A stretch of DNA of 64,000 nt, taken from positions 1-64,000 of IMG/VR virus record IMGVR_UViG_3300009185_000001. One strand, 5' to 3'. Every line of letters begins with the position of its first letter. Position 1 is the first letter of the stretch. This DNA comes from a virus. Taxonomy: Duplodnaviria > Caudoviricetes. Under the pieces are notes generated by a model. The model was not told the origin of the DNA. It did no database searches and worked only from the letters and a program-made list of their open reading frames with translations. This document shows, piece by piece, positions 11,414 through 33,942 of this stretch. The position numbers and the translations under genes were made by a program.

Positions 11414-11500
11414 GGATGATTAATTTAACTGGCGTTAAACCTAGTCTTGAAAACTAGCGGTGCTGAAAGGCATGGGGATCGATACCTCAGTCATCCGCCA
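11414..11500 (+). tRNA. trnS: tRNA-Ser(UGA), likely 8/4 fold
   Basis: Anticodon stem CTAGT/ACTAG with TGA; long variable arm; G73; encoded CCA. Confidence 0.9.
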
Positions 11501-11509
11501 TTTTTTTTG

Positions 11510-11537
11510 TTGACATTTTCAGAAAAAAAACTATAAT
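11510..11537 (+). promoter_or_regulatory. Sigma70-type early promoter
   Basis: TTGACA-N16-TATAAT upstream of the RNA ligase. Confidence 0.75.
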
Positions 11538-11544
11538 ACTGATT

Positions 11545-12558
11545 ATGAAATTAGCATCAGTAGAAATCCTAAAAAACGTTCGTGAGCATCCTAATGCTGA
11601 TTCCTTAGAACTTTGTGAAGTTCTTGGATGGCAAACGGTAGTAAAAAAAGGAATCCATAAAGAAGGAGATATGGTTGTATTCATTACGATTGATACAATC
11701 GTTCCTCGATGTCAATGGTCAGAATTTCTAGTAGATTCTAAAAATCCAGACAAACCAATTAGGCTTAAAAATATAAAACTTCGTGGAGAATATAGTTCAG
11801 GATTGGTTATACCTCTCAGTGAATTTCCTGATCAATTTACAGAAACTACTGTTATTGGTGAGGATTTAACTACTTTGCTTGGTATTCAAAAGTATGTGAA
11901 GGAAATCCCTGCAAATCTTTCCGGAGAAACATTGGGAGATTTTCCAACAAGTATTATCTCTAAAACAGATGAAGACAATGGGCTGAATGATCCAAATTTA
12001 GTTGAAAAGGTTCTCAATCACGATTCTCATATCACAGTAACAAGCAAACTCGATGGAAGTTCTATAACTCTAATTGTTGAAGATGGTGTACTTACACAAG
12101 TTTGTACAAGGAATCTTTCCAAGAAAGAGACCGAAAATAATACATTCTGGAAAGCCGCAAAAAAACTTACCATTCCAGAAAATTGGACAGGAACAATTCA
12201 GGGTGAACTTTGTGGAAATGGAATCCAACGAAATCAGCTTAAATTGGAAGATGTTAAGATCTTTGTATTTCAAATCAGTGAAAACAAAAAATACATGACC
12301 TACGAAGAGATGAAAGATTTTTGCGAAAATTCTTTACATTGTGATATCGTTCCACTAGTATGTAAATTAGGTTTAGAAGAACAAATAAAACTTTGGGTAA
12401 ATCCATTGCAAAAACTTCAAGAACTTGCAGACAAACAAAAATATCCAAGTGGTTTAGACGGAGAAGGAATCGTAGTAAGACCATCATCTTATCCAAAAAG
12501 TTATTCATCTCGTCGCCCACTTGGATTTAAACTCATCAACCGAAACTATAAAGACTAA
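11545..12558 (+). CDS. RNA ligase, DRB0094/Rnl2-like family
   Basis: N-terminal H.NAD.LE...V.GW..VV domain; KLDGSS (motif I), EGIV (IV), FKLIN (V). Confidence 0.85.
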   Translation: MKLASVEILKNVREHPNADSLELCEVLGWQTVVKKGIHKEGDMVVFITIDTIVPRCQWSEFLVDSKNPDKPIRLKNIKLRGEYSSGLVIPLSEFPDQFTETTVIGEDLTTLLGIQKYVKEIPANLSGETLGDFPTSIISKTDEDNGLNDPNLVEKVLNHDSHITVTSKLDGSSITLIVEDGVLTQVCTRNLSKKETENNTFWKAAKKLTIPENWTGTIQGELCGNGIQRNQLKLEDVKIFVFQISENKKYMTYEEMKDFCENSLHCDIVPLVCKLGLEEQIKLWVNPLQKLQELADKQKYPSGLDGEGIVVRPSSYPKSYSSRRPLGFKLINRNYKD

Positions 12559-12739: not shown

Positions 12740-12930
12740 AAGATACATATAAAGAAGCAGCAGAAGTAGGAGAGATTAAAGATCAAGTATCAATTATGCA
12801 AGATGATATATTGGATATATACACAAAAAATCCAAAAGAATGTAAAAACCTTCTCGTTGAGCTTTCAAAAATTAACAAAGAATTGGATGAACTGGATGCA
12901 GAATATGATATTCTTATAAAGCAATTGTGA
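12736..12930 (+). CDS. Hypothetical coiled-coil protein
   Basis: ATGA overlap. Confidence 0.6.
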   Translation: MKDTYKEAAEVGEIKDQVSIMQDDILDIYTKNPKECKNLLVELSKINKELDELDAEYDILIKQL

Positions 12931-12967
12931 TTGCTTTATAGTATTTTTAATGTTAAGTCTTAAAAAA

Positions 12968-13825
12968 TTAAGCAGTTAGCGTTCTACAATAAGAGGTATA
13001 ATCAACCCAACCGAAGGAATCATATCTTTTAAATCCATCTATGTTGATGTATGCACTATATCCATCGTCTACATTTATAAATGTACCATATGAAACAAAA
13101 ACCGGAGTTCTATTGCTATTGCCAAAATAAAAGCTATAAGCATTTGGAAGTATTACTTCGGTGATCGCAGAAGCAGCATTTAAAATACTTTTTGTAGCAA
13201 CTATCATTTTTGCACTTAGAGGAACATTTACAGGAGTTATATATTGTCTAGAATTCCAAACAATATCAGTAAGAACCCATTGCTGAAAATCTTCAACGAA
13301 ATTTGAACTTACAGGTGCTGTGTTATTATTTAAAACCCAATTAACAGCAAGTCCAACTGCTCCGCAAGTTGTTGAAAGACTTCCTCCTTGACCTCTTCTT
13401 TTTACATATCCAACATCCCCATCGATAGTGATTCCGAGATGCGGCATTACATTAAGATATAATGCACCAGATACTGCTGGAATATGACTAGCCCATGCAA
13501 TTAAACCAACAGTTCCTGCAAATGGATAGCCACCAATTCCACCTTCCATAAACGGTCCTAGAAATGGTTGTAAGGAAACTGGTTGCTGTCCTATATTATT
13601 ATTTCCGTATATAGGAGCATCTATATCATCTGCACAAATTGACTGAGCCATTAAAACGGTATTTGTATTAAAACCAGAAACATTTTTAATAAGTGTTGCT
13701 GCAATACTGCCAAAGCTTTGTGCTGTAATTGCACTTGATAATTTAAAAGAATTTGTGGAACTATTATCTCCCCAACTGTAATTAACAGAAGTAACCTTTT
13801 GGGTATATGTTGTTGGATTTGCCAT
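12968..13825 (-). CDS. LCIB/LCIC-family beta-carbonic anhydrase, copy 2
   Basis: ICADD (C64, D66), F..GG.GG.P..G..G..A..SH, PH.GI..DG.VG...R.G (H129), TCGA (C154). Confidence 0.85.
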   Translation of the reverse strand: MANPTTYTQKVTSVNYSWGDNSSTNSFKLSSAITAQSFGSIAATLIKNVSGFNTNTVLMAQSICADDIDAPIYGNNNIGQQPVSLQPFLGPFMEGGIGGYPFAGTVGLIAWASHIPAVSGALYLNVMPHLGITIDGDVGYVKRRGQGGSLSTTCGAVGLAVNWVLNNNTAPVSSNFVEDFQQWVLTDIVWNSRQYITPVNVPLSAKMIVATKSILNAASAITEVILPNAYSFYFGNSNRTPVFVSYGTFINVDDGYSAYINIDGFKRYDSFGWVDYTSYCRTLTA

Positions 13826-13828
13826 AAT

Positions 13829-15034
13829 TTATAGTAAAGTGTTTTTAAATGCTGTTGTATAGTCTACCCATCCCGAAGAATTGTATTTAGCAAAGCTGCT
13901 TACATCTACATACGCATCATATCCATCATCAGTATTTATGAATGTTCCAGAGCAGAAATATACATCTGGAGCAAATCCTACACTAGCAGCAATAGCATAT
14001 GCAGCTGGAAGATTTGTTTCTACCCAAGATTGTATAGCACTTCTTATTATTTCCGTAGCAACTCTCATTCTATCGGCGGGAGCAGTAGCTAAAAGCGTAC
14101 TTCTATTATTCCATAGAATATTTGTTAATGTAAATTGTTGATAATCATCTTTAACAGAAAATGCAAATGATGTGTTAGGATCTACTGCATTTGAAGCCAC
14201 AACGGTTGAAATTGCTAAGTCAACGGCTCCACAAGTGGAAGATAATATTCCTCCCTGTCCTCTTCTTTTCATAAATCCAACGTCTCCGTCAAATGTGATT
14301 CCAATATGAGGAGCAGCATATAAGAAAAGTGCTCCACTCAAAGCGGTTGTTGTATGTGTTAACCATGCAACCAATCCAGTAATTCCAGTGTGAGGATAGC
14401 CTGCTAATCCACCAGCCATAAATGCTCCGAGATATGAAGACATTGAAACCGGAAATTGTCCTATGTTTCCAATAAACTTAGGAGCATCCACATCGTCAGA
14501 ACATATAGATTCTGCTACAACAATGTTATCGGGAGTATATCCAAATTCTGATTGTATAAAGTTTATTGTTTTAGAACCAAATGTTTCTGATAATAATGCA
14601 TTTGGATATATTTGCTGTATTGTGGATGAATAAGAATCGGCGGAATTATATGCCATTACTGCTCCGTATGCTAATGTAATATTACGAATTTCTGTTTTAA
14701 ATTCAAATCCAACGGGCAATTCATAAACTGGTAATCTTCCGGTGGTTGTATTAATTGCTGTCAATCCAGAAATTTTACATGCGGACAAAACCTTTATACT
14801 TTGAAAGTTTCCATCATGCTGTAATTTATCATCAATAACAACAAATCCATTGCTATTGGGTTCATTTACAATTAAAGAATTTAATGCTTTATTAGTTTCT
14901 TGTAAGTTAACTATATAACCAGTCTGTGCGAACAATGCTCGATTTTGATCATTGTTTACTTTTATCCAAGAATTATTCCAACCAACATTTGGATTTATTG
15001 GATTACTAGCAATTACTGGTGTTAAAGATGCCAT
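13829..15034 (-). CDS. LCIB/LCIC-family beta-carbonic anhydrase, copy 1, with about 130-aa N-terminal extension
   Basis: YPNAL...F, GYTPDN, ICSDD (C178, D180), PHIGI (H243), TCGAV (C268). Confidence 0.88.
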   Translation of the reverse strand: MASLTPVIASNPINPNVGWNNSWIKVNNDQNRALFAQTGYIVNLQETNKALNSLIVNEPNSNGFVVIDDKLQHDGNFQSIKVLSACKISGLTAINTTTGRLPVYELPVGFEFKTEIRNITLAYGAVMAYNSADSYSSTIQQIYPNALLSETFGSKTINFIQSEFGYTPDNIVVAESICSDDVDAPKFIGNIGQFPVSMSSYLGAFMAGGLAGYPHTGITGLVAWLTHTTTALSGALFLYAAPHIGITFDGDVGFMKRRGQGGILSSTCGAVDLAISTVVASNAVDPNTSFAFSVKDDYQQFTLTNILWNNRSTLLATAPADRMRVATEIIRSAIQSWVETNLPAAYAIAASVGFAPDVYFCSGTFINTDDGYDAYVDVSSFAKYNSSGWVDYTTAFKNTLL

Positions 15035-15043
15035 GTTATATCA

Positions 15044-15051
15044 TACTTATC
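15044..15051 (-). promoter_or_regulatory. Late promoter motif
   Basis: GATAAGTA 9 nt upstream of the 15034 ATG. Confidence 0.6.
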
Positions 15052-15101
15052 CTTTATAATGTTTTTTATTAATATTATTTTAAAATATACTAAGTAGTTT
15101 T

Positions 15102-15383
15102 ATGAATAAAAAAGATTTATTACTTTTAGCCGAAGCATATGATGATGTTGTTGAAAATGAAATTCCATATGAAATTTCTCCGGAACAAGCACTTGAAAAT
15201 GAAAAGGAAGAAGTTGGTATGCTAAAAACTAGCTTGGAGAATACTCATAGAAAAATCGAAATGCTATTGAAGCTAATTGAAGATGGGCATGAAATTGAAC
15301 CTTGGATGATGCAAAAACTTCCAACTGCATTAAAAGCTATTTCTGAAGTTGCCGATGTTGTTCAAACCAAACACGGCTATTGA
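15102..15383 (+). CDS. Hypothetical protein with shared leader
   Basis: MNKKDLLLLAEAYDDVVENE; CTAAGTA at 15090-15096. Confidence 0.7.
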   Translation: MNKKDLLLLAEAYDDVVENEIPYEISPEQALENEKEEVGMLKTSLENTHRKIEMLLKLIEDGHEIEPWMMQKLPTALKAISEVADVVQTKHGY

Positions 15384-30542: not shown

Positions 30543-30798
30543 ATTTCTTTCTCTCCATTCTAACTTCTTTTCTCTTCATGTCAAGTTTTTTGATTTGTTC
30601 TTCAAGTTTCTTGTTTCTATGTTTTTCAAAACCAAAATCAAAATCCCCAAAAGGAGTTATCATTTTATAGAGTTTTGTAATTTCTCTATCTAACTTTTGT
30701 AATTTTTTAAAAATGGTCGAAAGTACACGACTCGAACGTGTGCCACTCGTACGTCTACGGCTGTTCTCTCCACCTAAACTAACTTTCGAAATTTTCAT
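30526..30798 (-). CDS. Hypothetical basic protein
   Basis: Overlapping early-array ORF. Confidence 0.5.
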   Translation of the reverse strand: MKISKVSLGGENSRRRTSGTRSSRVLSTIFKKLQKLDREITKLYKMITPFGDFDFGFEKHRNKKLEEQIKKLDMKRKEVRMERKKYAKTT

Positions 30799-32679: not shown

Positions 32680-33942
32680 ATGATCGGGAAATGTCAAGAA
32701 CTAAAAGAGAACGAAATGCATAAAGCATTTAAGTTCCGTTTGCTTCCTACAAAGGAGCAAGAAGTTCTTTTAGCAAAGCACTTTGGATGTTCTAGATTCA
32801 TCTATAATCACTTTTTATCTGAAAAGCAAAAACATTATTTGGAAAACAAAACAACGTTGAATTTTAATCAATGTGCAGGAAATTTAGTAGCTAAGAAAAA
32901 AGAAGAAGGATATGAATGGTTAAAAGAAGTTAATTCGCAAGTTCTTATATCCACTCTAATGAATTTGGAAACAGCTTATGGCAATTTTTTTAAAAAGAAA
33001 TCTAAGTTCCCTCGTTTTAAATCAAAAAAGAATAAAAATTCGTTTCAGATCCCTCAACATATTTCTTTAAAAGAAGAAAATGTAGTTCAAATACCAAAGT
33101 TCAAAGAAGGATTAAAATTTGTTAAACATAGAGAACTAAAAGGAGAAATTAAATCAGCAACCATTTCCAAATTAACTACAGGAAAATACTACATTTCCTT
33201 CCTGTGCGTTGTGGAAAAGCCAATTAAACACAAGAAAACAGGAAAGAGCATTGGAATTGATTTGGGGTTGAAAGACTTCATTATTACTTCTGAAGAACAG
33301 AGATATTGTAATCCGAAGTTCACTAAGAAGTATGAAGCTAAGTTAGCTAAAAAGCAAAGAATTTTAAGTAGAAAAGAAAAAGGATCAAAAGGAAGAGACA
33401 AAGCTAGAATAGCTGTTGCAAAGGTACATGAGAAGATAACCAATTCTCGTAATGATATGCAACATAAAGTTTCTTCTAAGTTAGTAAAAGACTACGATCT
33501 AATTGCAATAGAAGACCTGAATGTTAAAGGAATGGTTAAAAACCATAAACTCGCTAAAGCAATATCAGATGTAGCTTGGTCAAGCTTTGTGACCAAATTA
33601 AAGTACAAAGCACAATGGAATGATAAAGAAGTGATCACTATAGATCGTTTTTATCCTTCCAGCAAAACATGTAGTTGCTGTGATCAGGTCAAAGAGAGTC
33701 TTTCATTGGATGAAAGAACTTGGACTTGTTCTAAATGCAATACAATACATGATAGAGATGTTAATGCTTCAAAGAATATTTTAAGAAGAGCATTAGCAAT
33801 TCAATCGGCAGGAACTGTCGATAACAGGAATGGAGCTAAGGTAAGACCAAAGGAGATCTCAAAGGTTTCTAGAGGCACTGGCGTTGAAGTTCTTAAAAAG
33901 AAGAATGGACGTAAGTACATTCTGAAGCCAGTAGGTCTTTAG
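32680..33942 (+). CDS. tnpB: IS200/IS605-family RNA-guided endonuclease TnpB
   Basis: HKAFKFRLLPT..Q HTH; RuvC GIDLG, IEDL, DRD.NA; CSCC/CSKC zinc finger. Confidence 0.95.
   Translation: MIGKCQELKENEMHKAFKFRLLPTKEQEVLLAKHFGCSRFIYNHFLSEKQKHYLENKTTLNFNQCAGNLVAKKKEEGYEWLKEVNSQVLISTLMNLETAYGNFFKKKSKFPRFKSKKNKNSFQIPQHISLKEENVVQIPKFKEGLKFVKHRELKGEIKSATISKLTTGKYYISFLCVVEKPIKHKKTGKSIGIDLGLKDFIITSEEQRYCNPKFTKKYEAKLAKKQRILSRKEKGSKGRDKARIAVAKVHEKITNSRNDMQHKVSSKLVKDYDLIAIEDLNVKGMVKNHKLAKAISDVAWSSFVTKLKYKAQWNDKEVITIDRFYPSSKTCSCCDQVKESLSLDERTWTCSKCNTIHDRDVNASKNILRRALAIQSAGTVDNRNGAKVRPKEISKVSRGTGVEVLKKKNGRKYILKPVGL

What the first reader, a model, noticed from the sequence alone, without database searches (positions are those of the whole stretch)
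12968..15051. Tandem LCIB/LCIC-family beta-carbonic anhydrases under a phage late promoter
Seen: two adjacent paralogous ORFs, 3 nt apart, carry the same motif series: C-x-D-D (C64/D66 and C178/D180), F..GG..G.P..G..G..A...H, P-H-x-G-I-x-x-D-G-x-V-G-x-x-x-R-R-G (H129, H243) and T-C-G-A (C154, C268). GATAAGTA lies 9 nt upstream of the first gene. Established: this series matches the LCIB/LCIC family (Chlamydomonas CO2-concentrating mechanism; CRDE...PH...R.G..ACGAL), a beta-CA fold with Cys/His/Cys zinc ligands and active bacterial and diatom homologues. Algal LCIB and LCIC act as a heteromer. Inference: the phage encodes a two-subunit CA expressed late, either to supply bicarbonate or manage pH/CO2 in the infected cell (carboxylases, nucleotide synthesis) or as a virion component. 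I do not recall LCIB-type CAs described in phages, but I cannot check this.
Basis: partly seen in the sequence, partly recalled or inferred. Interest (0 to 1): 0.85.

Follow-up and report, generated by a model that had tools for sequence, protein, structure and literature searches.

The report
Phage paired LCIB-type carbonic anhydrases
A complete 203-kb freshwater T4-like phage carries two adjacent, co-transcribed genes for algal-type (LCIB/theta) zinc carbonic anhydrases, and this upstream-plus-downstream pair recurs in a dozen related uncultured phages and is predicted to form a heterodimer, although enzyme activity and its purpose are untested.

Summary
Two minus-strand genes lie 3 nt apart: A (13829-15034, 401 aa) and B (12968-13825, 285 aa). 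They are 45% identical, and both pass Pfam LCIB_C_CA well above threshold. Both keep every residue that is invariant across the family: Cys/His/Cys, the Asp after the first Cys, and the conserved His and Arg. The models match active diatom PtLCIB4 best. The contig is a complete phage genome with terminal repeats, not a chimera.

New here:
- The pair is a conserved two-gene module found in at least 13 contigs. The upstream copy always carries a variable N-terminal add-on. The downstream copy is always a bare domain, 3-8 nt behind or overlapping.
- Upstream and downstream copies form mirrored clades.
- The predicted A:B dimer scores 0.95 against 0.00 for controls, through the active-site face.
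- The GATAAGTA box is the one found before the tail-tube and prohead-protease genes.
- Lake metatranscriptome contigs cover both genes.

The phage LCIB clade has at least 154 IMG/VR hits, mostly single-copy. It is absent from 50,697 GenBank phages and from the papers searched. This scan already met a single-copy member on another phage genome. Carbonic anhydrase activity, the role in infection and virion association remain untested.

The parts
13829..15034 (-). Gene A, the upstream subunit (401 aa): an orphan N-terminal add-on plus an LCIB-type beta-CA-fold domain
   Evidence: ORF. Pfam PF18599 E 1.9e-31, 109.5 bits against a cut-off of 25. Foldseek top hit PtLCIB4 5b5y, E 4.5e-14, TM 0.79 by target.
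14633..15034 (-). N-terminal add-on of A (residues 1-134), family unknown, lineage-specific
   Evidence: pLDDT under 50. No Pfam, PHROG or Atlas match. Present only in the close relatives P0001, P0002 and L036; other upstream-type orthologues carry different add-ons of 38-135 aa.
13829..14632 (-). LCIB domain of A (residues 135-401), with predicted Zn ligands C178, H243, C268, plus D180, H227, R257
   Evidence: These columns are invariant in the phage clade and across 181 family domains. They align to PtLCIB4 C46/H102/C126 by HMMER.
12968..13825 (-). Gene B, the downstream subunit (285 aa): a bare LCIB domain with C64, D66, H114, H129, R143, C154
   Evidence: Pfam PF18599 E 9.3e-26. AF2 pLDDT 87.9, pTM 0.89. 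Invariant columns. Member of the downstream-copy clade, support 100/98.
13826..13828 (-). 3-nt junction between the stop of A and the ATG of B, read as probable translational coupling
   Evidence: Sequence. Junctions of 3-8 nt, or overlaps, in all other pairs. A metatranscriptome contig (X24, 13734-13879) spans it.
15044..15051 (-). GATAAGTA late-type box, 9 nt before the ATG of A
   Evidence: AGGATAAGTA also precedes the 812-aa gene at genome position 154534. GATAAATA precedes the tail tube gene (phrog_45) and the prohead protease gene (phrog_207).
12915..12940 (-). 11-bp hairpin just after B, between convergent genes; a likely end of the transcription unit
   Evidence: RNA fold -11.4 kcal/mol, z -4.05, 0 of 200 shuffles as good. 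The consensus terminator scan does not list it, because the stem is AT-rich.

Best explanation
The phage makes, late in infection, a soluble zinc enzyme built from two paralogous LCIB/theta-type (beta-fold) carbonic anhydrase subunits. One short or leaderless transcript starts just after the GATAAGTA box and ends at the hairpin behind B. B is translated by coupling to A, so the two are made in equal amounts. They pair through the canonical beta-CA dimer face, where each active site (Cys-His-Cys zinc, Asp, Arg, His) is completed by loops of the partner. The dimer interconverts CO2 and bicarbonate in the infected cell. Its most likely purpose is to keep respiratory CO2 as bicarbonate for carboxylation steps in nucleotide and lipid synthesis, or to steady pH. 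A carries a lineage-specific N-terminal add-on that may place the dimer somewhere; B is the more derived partner. Shown here: family membership, intact site residues, fold, phage context, conservation of the pair, the shared late-type box, and presence in lake RNA libraries. Inferred: hetero- rather than homodimer, catalytic activity, the physiological role and the cytoplasmic location.
For: Family and fold: Pfam PF18599 for both genes; PDB sequence hits to 6kfs, PtLCIB4, LCIC and LCIB; Foldseek top eight hits are all LCIB-family, followed by canonical beta-CAs; the B model has pLDDT 87.9.

Active site: every column that is near-invariant in 181 family domains is kept in A and B (C, D, H, H, R, C and the G/P scaffold). 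The residue after the zinc Cys is Ser (A) or Ala (B), as in active PtLCIB4 (CSDE), not Arg as in the PtLCIB4 S47R mutant (5b60). From memory, CrLCIB also has Arg there.

Pair conservation: tandem pairs occur in L025, L033, L032, three further metagenome contigs (one partner there is cut and unidentified) and six IMG/VR contigs. In the window's pair family, upstream copies form a clade with support 100/97 and downstream copies one with 100/98, with the same internal branching.

Dimer: ipSAE 0.95 in the median of three runs, best of 3 controls 0.00. This mark was reached by 58 of 80 solved complexes and 2 of 110 mismatched pairs. Runs agree in at least 95% of contacts and partner pLDDT is at least 93. 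The interface includes 179-182, 205, 227 and 257-260 of A and the matching residues of B.

Timing: the same box stands before the tail tube, prohead protease and other head-region genes, whereas the RNA ligase gene has a perfect TTGACA-17-TATAAT.

Expression: contigs from lake metatranscriptomes of three studies cover A, and two of them also B, at 90-100% identity. There is no cover over 15044-15327 in X15 and X21 and almost none in X16, and the contigs end at 15027/15028 in three runs.

Bicarbonate link of the nearest cellular relatives: a bacterial LCIB-like gene sits 8 nt behind a bestrophin-type anion channel gene.
Against: No assay exists. Recombinant Chlamydomonas LCIB and LCIC have the same site yet showed no CA activity in vitro (review PMC5876011), so intact residues do not prove activity. 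The phage clade has its own invariant insert (N190-x-G192-Q193) in a loop modelled with low confidence next to the site; it could change the substrate. The complex test cannot separate A:B from A:A or B:B and may score from likeness to solved LCIB dimers. Most phage relatives manage with one copy (74 of 80 loci). RNA-library contigs can hold DNA and cannot show strand or ends. The host is unknown, so the metabolic purpose is a guess. The genome has no psbA, which argues weakly against a cyanobacterial host and so against a role tied to CO2 concentration.
Confidence: 0.6

Rival explanations
1. The enzyme is a virion-associated or otherwise anchored carbonic anhydrase. The variable N-terminal add-on of the upstream subunit docks the dimer onto the particle or onto a host structure, and the bare downstream subunit rides along by dimerisation. 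The enzyme would then act at the cell surface or on entry, not as a cytoplasmic metabolic helper.
For: In other phage lineages the single-copy homologue lies co-oriented inside head and structural modules, between or just behind portal, major head protein and virion structural genes. The architecture is a lineage-specific N-terminus on a conserved C-terminal enzyme, and in every pair only one of the two subunits carries it; this is the pattern of anchored virion enzymes. The box is late-type. First-reader note e1-5373839 raised the same idea.
Against: No add-on matches any known structural, fibre or decoration family. In this genome the pair lies among nucleotide-metabolism and homing-endonuclease genes, not in the structural block. 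In L012 the neighbour is PhoH, a typical auxiliary gene. There are no virion proteomics. No function for a carbonic anhydrase on a particle is known.
Confidence: 0.2
2. The proteins have the LCIB fold but are not carbonic anhydrases. They could be a zinc enzyme with another small substrate, as COS and CS2 hydrolases are within the beta-CA fold, or a non-catalytic binding or scaffold protein, as proposed for Chlamydomonas LCIB/LCIC.
For: The phage clade sits on a long stem (0.7-0.9 substitutions per site) and has an invariant N-x-G-Q insert and other clade-specific residues near the site. CrLCIB and LCIC were inactive in vitro. B has derived changes beside the zinc Cys (Ser to Ala) and in the YQQ motif (Tyr to Phe).
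Against: The full catalytic set, not just the zinc ligands, is invariant over a clade that has diverged to about 40% identity. The best structural match is the active PtLCIB4. The nearest bacterial relatives are linked to anion and bicarbonate channels.
Confidence: 0.15
3. The pair belongs to host DNA, or the contig is a chimeric assembly, so there is no phage carbonic anhydrase.
For: None found. The nearest cellular relatives are bacterial.
Against: The record is a single 202,880-bp contig with direct terminal repeats, rated 100% complete. GC is uniform at about 31%. Phage genes lie on both sides. At least 154 IMG/VR stretches encode relatives. The phage clade is monophyletic with support 99-100. 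The DNA recurs in lake metagenomes of many studies.
Confidence: 0.02

Closest known systems
PtLCIB4 / PtLCIB3 of Phaeodactylum tricornutum (LCIB family, also called theta-CA; PDB 5b5y)
   Same: Same Pfam family and fold (TM 0.79). Same Cys-His-Cys zinc site, Asp, His88-equivalent and Arg. A small residue follows the zinc Cys.
   Different: About 22% identity. The phage clade has an N-x-G-Q insert, C-x-D-D instead of C-x-D-E, N-terminal add-ons and a viral context. The diatom proteins are plastid CO2-concentrating factors.
Chlamydomonas LCIB-LCIC heteromer (PDB 5k5w, 5b5x)
   Same: Two paralogous LCIB-type subunits that work as one complex; both subunits keep the zinc site.
   Different: The duplications are independent: the phage copies branch inside the phage clade, not with LCIB or LCIC. 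The algal genes are not adjacent and act around the pyrenoid. The residue after the zinc Cys is Arg in the algal proteins (stated from memory).
Short bacterial LCIB-like proteins (about 230-275 aa; Acidobacteriota and Planctomycetaceae MAGs)
   Same: The phage clade nests within this group in the tree. They share C-x-D-D and the L-G-P-F loop.
   Different: No N-x-G-Q insert and no add-ons. Single chromosomal genes, one of them in a bestrophin / LCIB / TMEM175 cluster. Uncharacterised.
Single-copy phage LCIB-type genes (IMG/VR contigs L001-L022; earlier scan finding e1-5338767)
   Same: Same phage-only clade, an N-terminal add-on and a late or structural gene context.
   Different: One gene, presumably a homodimer. 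The window's lineage has a fixed upstream-plus-downstream pair.
Canonical beta-carbonic anhydrases (E. coli Can, H. influenzae HICA) and CsoSCA
   Same: Same fold class and zinc chemistry; an obligate dimer with the active site at the interface. CsoSCA likewise pairs two diverged beta-CA units.
   Different: Only remote structural likeness (Foldseek E 3e-3 or worse). They have C-x-D-x-R. In CsoSCA the second unit has lost its site, whereas both phage subunits keep theirs.
Alpha, beta and gamma carbonic anhydrases annotated on viral contigs and giant viruses
   Same: Virus-borne carbonic anhydrases proposed as auxiliary genes (bioRxiv 10.64898/2026.01.21.700432; BFVD giant-virus entries).
   Different: Other CA classes. 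No LCIB-type fold in BFVD (best hit E 0.03 to a canonical beta-CA) and no LCIB mention in that preprint.

Membership tests
LCIB/LCIC family (Pfam PF18599 LCIB_C_CA; theta-CA) | Profile match above the curated threshold | tested here: met
   A scores 109.5 bits and B 90.9 bits against a cut-off of 25. The own-genome scan finds exactly these two genes.
LCIB/LCIC family (Pfam PF18599 LCIB_C_CA; theta-CA) | Cys-His-Cys zinc ligands at the family positions | tested here: met
   C178/H243/C268 (A) and C64/H129/C154 (B) align to PtLCIB4 C46/H102/C126. These columns are about 95% or more conserved in 181 domains.
LCIB/LCIC family (Pfam PF18599 LCIB_C_CA; theta-CA) | Catalytic Asp two residues after the first Cys, plus the conserved His (PtLCIB4 H88, CrLCIB H162) and Arg (CrLCIB R194) | tested here: met
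   D180, H227, R257 in A and D66, H114, R143 in B are invariant. The importance of these residues is taken from review PMC5876011. The residue equivalence rests on alignment, not on a solved phage structure.
LCIB/LCIC family (Pfam PF18599 LCIB_C_CA; theta-CA) | Beta-CA-like fold closest to solved LCIB structures | tested here: met
   Foldseek ranks 1-8 are PtLCIB4, 6kfs, LCIB and LCIC (E 4.5e-14 to 3.6e-5); canonical beta-CAs follow.
LCIB/LCIC family (Pfam PF18599 LCIB_C_CA; theta-CA) | Dimer through the active-site face | tested here: inconclusive
   The predicted A:B interface scores 0.95 against 0.00 for the best control and covers the site loops. It is a prediction that may echo solved LCIB dimers; homodimers were not tested.
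LCIB/LCIC family (Pfam PF18599 LCIB_C_CA; theta-CA) | Zinc binding and CO2 hydration activity | not testable with these tools
   Needs purified protein. Some family members (CrLCIB, LCIC) were inactive in vitro.
T4-type late genes | A TATAAATA-like box shortly upstream, shared with virion genes and absent from early genes | tested here: met
   GATAAGTA lies 9 nt before A. [GT]ATAA[AG]TA stands before the tail sheath, tail tube and prohead protease genes and the 812-aa gene. The RNA ligase gene instead has TTGACA-17-TATAAT.
T4-type late genes | Dependence on a phage late sigma factor (gp55/gp33 type) and late timing | not tested
   I did not search for gp55 or gp33 homologues. Timing needs an infected culture; the host is unknown.

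The most novel reading that the evidence does not exclude
The pair is an asymmetric, targeted enzyme. The upstream subunit's fast-changing N-terminal add-on docks a heterodimeric carbonic anhydrase onto the phage particle or a host structure, and the derived bare subunit is an obligate partner. Phages would then carry or position a CO2/bicarbonate catalyst as part of infection, a use of carbonic anhydrase not known for any virus, and one that arose independently of the algal LCIB-LCIC heteromer.
Probability: 0.2. Interest if true: 0.85.

Novelty: new variant of a known kind. Interest (0 to 1): 0.66.

Why it matters
Carbonic anhydrases of the LCIB/theta type are known as parts of algal CO2-concentrating mechanisms, and their bacterial relatives are uncharacterised. 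This finding shows a large phage-only branch of the family with at least 154 IMG/VR hits. It occurs in lake metagenomes of many studies and is absent from all 50,697 deposited phage genomes searched.

Within that branch, a lineage of large T4-like phages has fixed a two-gene upstream-plus-downstream module with both active sites intact. This gives an independently evolved counterpart to the LCIB-LCIC heteromer in proteins that are small and soluble and should be easy to express. It could help settle why this family so often works as paralogue pairs and what switches its activity on.

It also adds inorganic-carbon handling to the list of processes that abundant freshwater phages may reprogram late in infection.

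Tried and rejected
- **GenBank phages.** tblastn with A, B and a single-copy relative found no match.
- **PHROGs.** No family for either protein.
- **N-terminal add-ons.** Nothing from Pfam or PHROGs at permissive thresholds, the ESM Atlas, or tblastn with the L012 add-on.
- **Arg in PtLCIB4 C-S-D-E-V-T-R-P.** I considered whether its absence from the phage proteins breaks the site. I rejected this, because that position is variable across the family and the family-invariant Arg is R257.
- **Cyanophage idea (a cytosolic CA collapsing the host's CO2-concentrating mechanism).** No psbA in a complete genome, and the capsid protein is only 35% identical to cyanomyovirus gp23. Not excluded, but unsupported.
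- **Host search through the TnpB gene.** One 85% identical copy in an unnamed 2.9-Mb MAG that has no LCIB gene. No host could be named.
- **One origin for all downstream copies.** Rejected by the AU test (p 9e-83), so there are two pair families or an unresolved deep history.
- **Key papers.** The two key structural papers (Jin 2016, Kikutani 2016) are not held. Details of PtLCIB4 activity are from memory, PDB titles and a review.
- **Control stretch for the RNA runs.** The control against DNA carry-over was therefore not done.
- **Consensus promoter and terminator scan.** Nothing above shuffles.
Full report
**What is there**

Two ORFs lie head to tail on the minus strand. A is 13829-15034 (401 aa) and B is 12968-13825 (285 aa), with 3 nt between the stop of A and the ATG of B. 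They are 45% identical over 252 residues (E 2e-73). Both match Pfam PF18599 (LCIB_C_CA): 109.5 and 90.9 bits against a cut-off of 25. The whole genome holds exactly these two matches. Neither protein has a PHROG family.

A sequence search of the PDB finds only LCIB-family entries: 6kfs, PtLCIB4 5b5y and its mutants, 9vzj, LCIC 5b5x and LCIB 5k5w. The GATAAGTA box is at 15044-15051, 9 nt before the start of A.

**Context**

The window is the first 64 kb of a single 202,880-bp virus record with direct terminal repeats, rated complete. GC is an even 31% or so. The genome encodes:
- a tail sheath, tail tube, baseplate hub and gp5-like protein;
- a gp23-like capsid protein and a prohead protease;
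- ribonucleotide reductase, two RNA ligases, dCMP deaminase, homing endonucleases and tRNAs.

Its capsid and sheath proteins are only 35-40% identical to those of cultured T4-like phages, with cyanomyoviruses and Flavobacterium phages as best hits. There is no psbA. The DNA of the region recurs in freshwater and lake metagenomes of many studies. A host or chimeric origin is therefore excluded.

**Is the catalytic machinery intact?**

I aligned 181 LCIB domains drawn from a search of 1.84 billion cluster representatives (589 clusters at E 0.001 or better). The near-invariant columns of the whole family, in A numbering, are:
- the three predicted zinc ligands C178, H243 and C268;
- D180, H227 and R257;
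- the scaffold F205, G208, G209, G212, P214, G217, A223, P242, G245, G253, G259, G269, A270;
- Q299 and N367.

Both A and B keep all of them. H227 and R257 correspond to the His and Arg that a review singles out as important in CrLCIB/LCIC (PMC5876011).

The residue after the zinc Cys is Ser in A and Ala in B. This is like active PtLCIB4 (C-S-D-E) and unlike the Arg of the PtLCIB4 S47R mutant entry 5b60. An Arg present in PtLCIB4 and 6kfs (V-T/N-R-P) is missing from the phage proteins, but that position varies across the family, so it is not a defining residue.

The AlphaFold model of A is confident over residues 135-401, and its best structural matches are PtLCIB4 (E 4.5e-14, TM 0.79 by target), then 6kfs, LCIB and LCIC. 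Canonical beta-CAs follow at E 3e-3 or worse. The model of B has pLDDT 87.9.

The phage clade has its own invariant features. The main one is an insert N190-x-G192-Q193 in a loop next to the site that is modelled with low confidence.

**The phage clade**

Close relatives are plentiful. There are 222 hits in the 5.8-billion-protein collection, 22 and then at least 154 stretches in IMG/VR, but none in 50,697 GenBank phage records with three different queries. BFVD holds no LCIB-type fold.

In trees, the sequences with the N-x-G-Q insert form one clade (support 99 to 100) on a long stem, nested in a group of short proteins (about 230-275 aa). The two of these for which a source gives a name are from Acidobacteriota and Planctomycetaceae MAGs. 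The two-domain and three-domain eukaryotic forms (diatom, diplonemid) are the outgroup.

In other phage lineages the gene is single-copy and lies co-oriented in late or structural modules:
- portal / 422 aa / major head protein / ... / LCIB / ... / virion structural protein in L003;
- gp23-like head protein / PhoH / ... / LCIB / adaptor-like gene in L012.

A complete 128.8-kb phage has one copy. An earlier report of this scan (e1-5338767) described such a single-copy gene behind a portal gene on another genome and reached the same view of a phage-only clade. I confirm that here independently.

**What is new: a conserved pair**

The tandem arrangement is not peculiar to this genome. I found it in:
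- a 216-kb metagenome contig (L025: 368 + 285 aa, 4-nt gap);
- L033 (313 + 353 aa) and L032 (326 aa + a cut gene);
- two contigs without DNA (314 + 318 aa; 365 + 297 aa);
- a 2-kb contig where a cut gene precedes a B orthologue;
- six of 80 IMG/VR loci, on contigs up to 217 kb.

In every pair that can be read, the upstream protein carries an N-terminal add-on of about 38-135 residues that differs between lineages. The downstream protein starts directly at the domain, with a conserved beginning of the type M-P-x-S-Q-T-T-Y-T. In the eight pairs whose junction I read, the gap is 3-8 nt; in one pair without DNA the two called genes overlap.

In the window's pair family the upstream copies form one clade (100/97) and the downstream copies another (100/98), with the same internal branching. 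So the two genes have been inherited together since before these phages diverged. A second pair family (L061, L062, L066, L067) shows the same mirrored pattern. An AU test rejects a single clade of all downstream copies (p 9e-83), so the deep history (one or two duplications) is unresolved.

The upstream type keeps the residues of the single-copy forms, while the downstream type is derived at nine type-specific positions. Two of these lie in the predicted interface: Ser to Ala beside the zinc Cys, and Tyr to Phe in the Y-Q-Q motif.

**Do A and B bind?**

ESMFold2 placed B against residues 135-401 of A with ipSAE 0.95 (median of three runs), against 0.00 for the best of three controls. That mark was reached by 58 of 80 solved complexes and 2 of 110 mismatched pairs in the tool's calibration. 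The runs share at least 95% of contacts, and partner pLDDT is at least 93. The interface is the symmetric face that carries the site loops: 179-182, 202-210, 226-232, 257-260 and 295-300 of A, and the matching stretches of B.

This supports a dimer of the LCIB/beta-CA kind. It cannot tell a heterodimer from homodimers, and it may partly be memory of solved LCIB dimers. The argument for a heteromer rests more on genetics: fixed gene order, tight junctions that suggest coupled translation, co-divergence, and the fact that only one partner carries the add-on.

**Timing and expression**

The bare 8-mer is not over-represented, but its placement is. Genome-wide, 12 of 21 GATAA[AG]TA sites lie within 40 nt upstream of an ORF start, against 8 of 70 for [AC]ATAA[AG]TA (Fisher p 5e-5).

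The boxed genes include the tail tube (phrog_45), the prohead protease (phrog_207), the tail sheath, and an 812-aa gene with the identical AGGATAAGTA. The RNA ligase gene two genes away has a perfect TTGACA-17-TATAAT ending 7 nt before its ATG. Promoter boxes in this genome thus sit a few bases before start codons. This agrees with first-reader note e1-5373855 on leaderless translation.

Behind B lies an 11-bp hairpin (z -4.05).

Contigs from lake metatranscriptomes of separate studies cover A almost fully, and B in part, at 90-97% identity (X15, X16). One run covers the 5' part of A at 100% (X21). Another has a contig that spans the A-B junction (X24). There is no cover over 15044-15327 in X15 and X21, and almost none in X16. 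In three runs the contigs stop at 15027 or 15028, about 10 nt inside the predicted transcript start.

These are assembled contigs from RNA libraries. They are consistent with one late transcript for both genes but do not prove it.

**Function**

The best reading is an active, soluble, probably heterodimeric carbonic anhydrase made late in infection. The purpose is inferred only. Candidates are retaining CO2 as bicarbonate for carbamoyl-phosphate, purine and fatty-acid carboxylations while phage DNA synthesis runs, or pH control.

One small piece of outside support for a bicarbonate link: a bacterial gene from the group closest to the phage clade lies 8 nt behind a bestrophin-type anion channel gene and directly before a TMEM175-type channel gene.

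The main rival is an anchored or virion-borne enzyme. This is suggested by the swappable N-terminal add-ons, the structural-module position in other phages and the late box. But no add-on resembles any known structural protein, and there are no proteomic data. A non-CA activity or a non-catalytic role cannot be excluded, because CrLCIB and LCIC are inactive in vitro and the phage clade has a private loop at the site.

**Novelty**

Papers held that mention both LCIB and phage are unrelated to this. Viral carbonic anhydrases reported so far are of the alpha, beta and gamma classes. The phage LCIB clade itself was met once before in this scan.

The new element here is the conserved two-subunit module, an independent parallel to algal LCIB-LCIC and to the fused two-domain eukaryotic forms. 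I rate it a new variant of a known kind.

Noticed in passing
window 11500-11547 and genome-wide: Promoter boxes sit 0-11 nt before start codons. The RNA ligase gene has a perfect TTGACA-17-TATAAT ending 7 nt before its ATG, and late boxes lie 3-17 nt before the ATG. No Shine-Dalgarno sequences are visible, so transcripts would be leaderless or nearly so.
   Followed up: partly
L035:5848-8340: A bacterial contig has a bestrophin-type anion channel gene, an LCIB-like gene 8 nt behind it, then an overlapping TMEM175-type channel gene. This looks like a bicarbonate/ion module around the cellular relatives nearest to the phage clade.
   Followed up: no
L061, L062, L066, L067 (IMG/VR; contigs up to 217 kb): A second family of tandem LCIB pairs: an upstream copy of about 366 aa beginning M-R-S-S-R-Q-Y-x-D-G-L-K-Q and a downstream copy of about 310 aa. 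It has mirrored clades of its own, and monophyly with the window's downstream copies is rejected by the AU test.
   Followed up: partly
window 15027-15028: Contigs from three lake RNA libraries end at the same place, 6-7 nt inside gene A; in one run the next letters are sequencing adapter. This is about 10 nt after the start expected from the GATAAGTA box.
   Followed up: partly
window 32680-33942; L027: The phage's solo TnpB-like gene (phrog_506) has an 85% identical copy on a 13-kb contig of an unnamed 2.9-Mb MAG. This could be a host clue or a mis-binned phage contig.
   Followed up: partly
window 30714-30788 (-): ARAGORN reports a tRNA with a four-base anticodon (gacg) and no assigned amino acid.
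   Followed up: no
P0137 (1013 aa) and P0138-P0158: Many eukaryotic family members hold two or three LCIB domains in one chain (diplonemid, diatom transcripts). This is a third, fused way in which the family pairs paralogous units.
   Followed up: no
L020:660-11236: In one phage lineage the single-copy LCIB gene lies between glycosyltransferase genes (phrog_7162, phrog_24687) and a 1058-aa gene, not next to head genes.
   Followed up: no
L003:8813-9091: The 92-aa gene right behind the single-copy LCIB gene matches the C-terminal ends of many longer phage proteins (phrog_4689, 3477, 10346, 727), like a detached shared C-terminal module.
   Followed up: no
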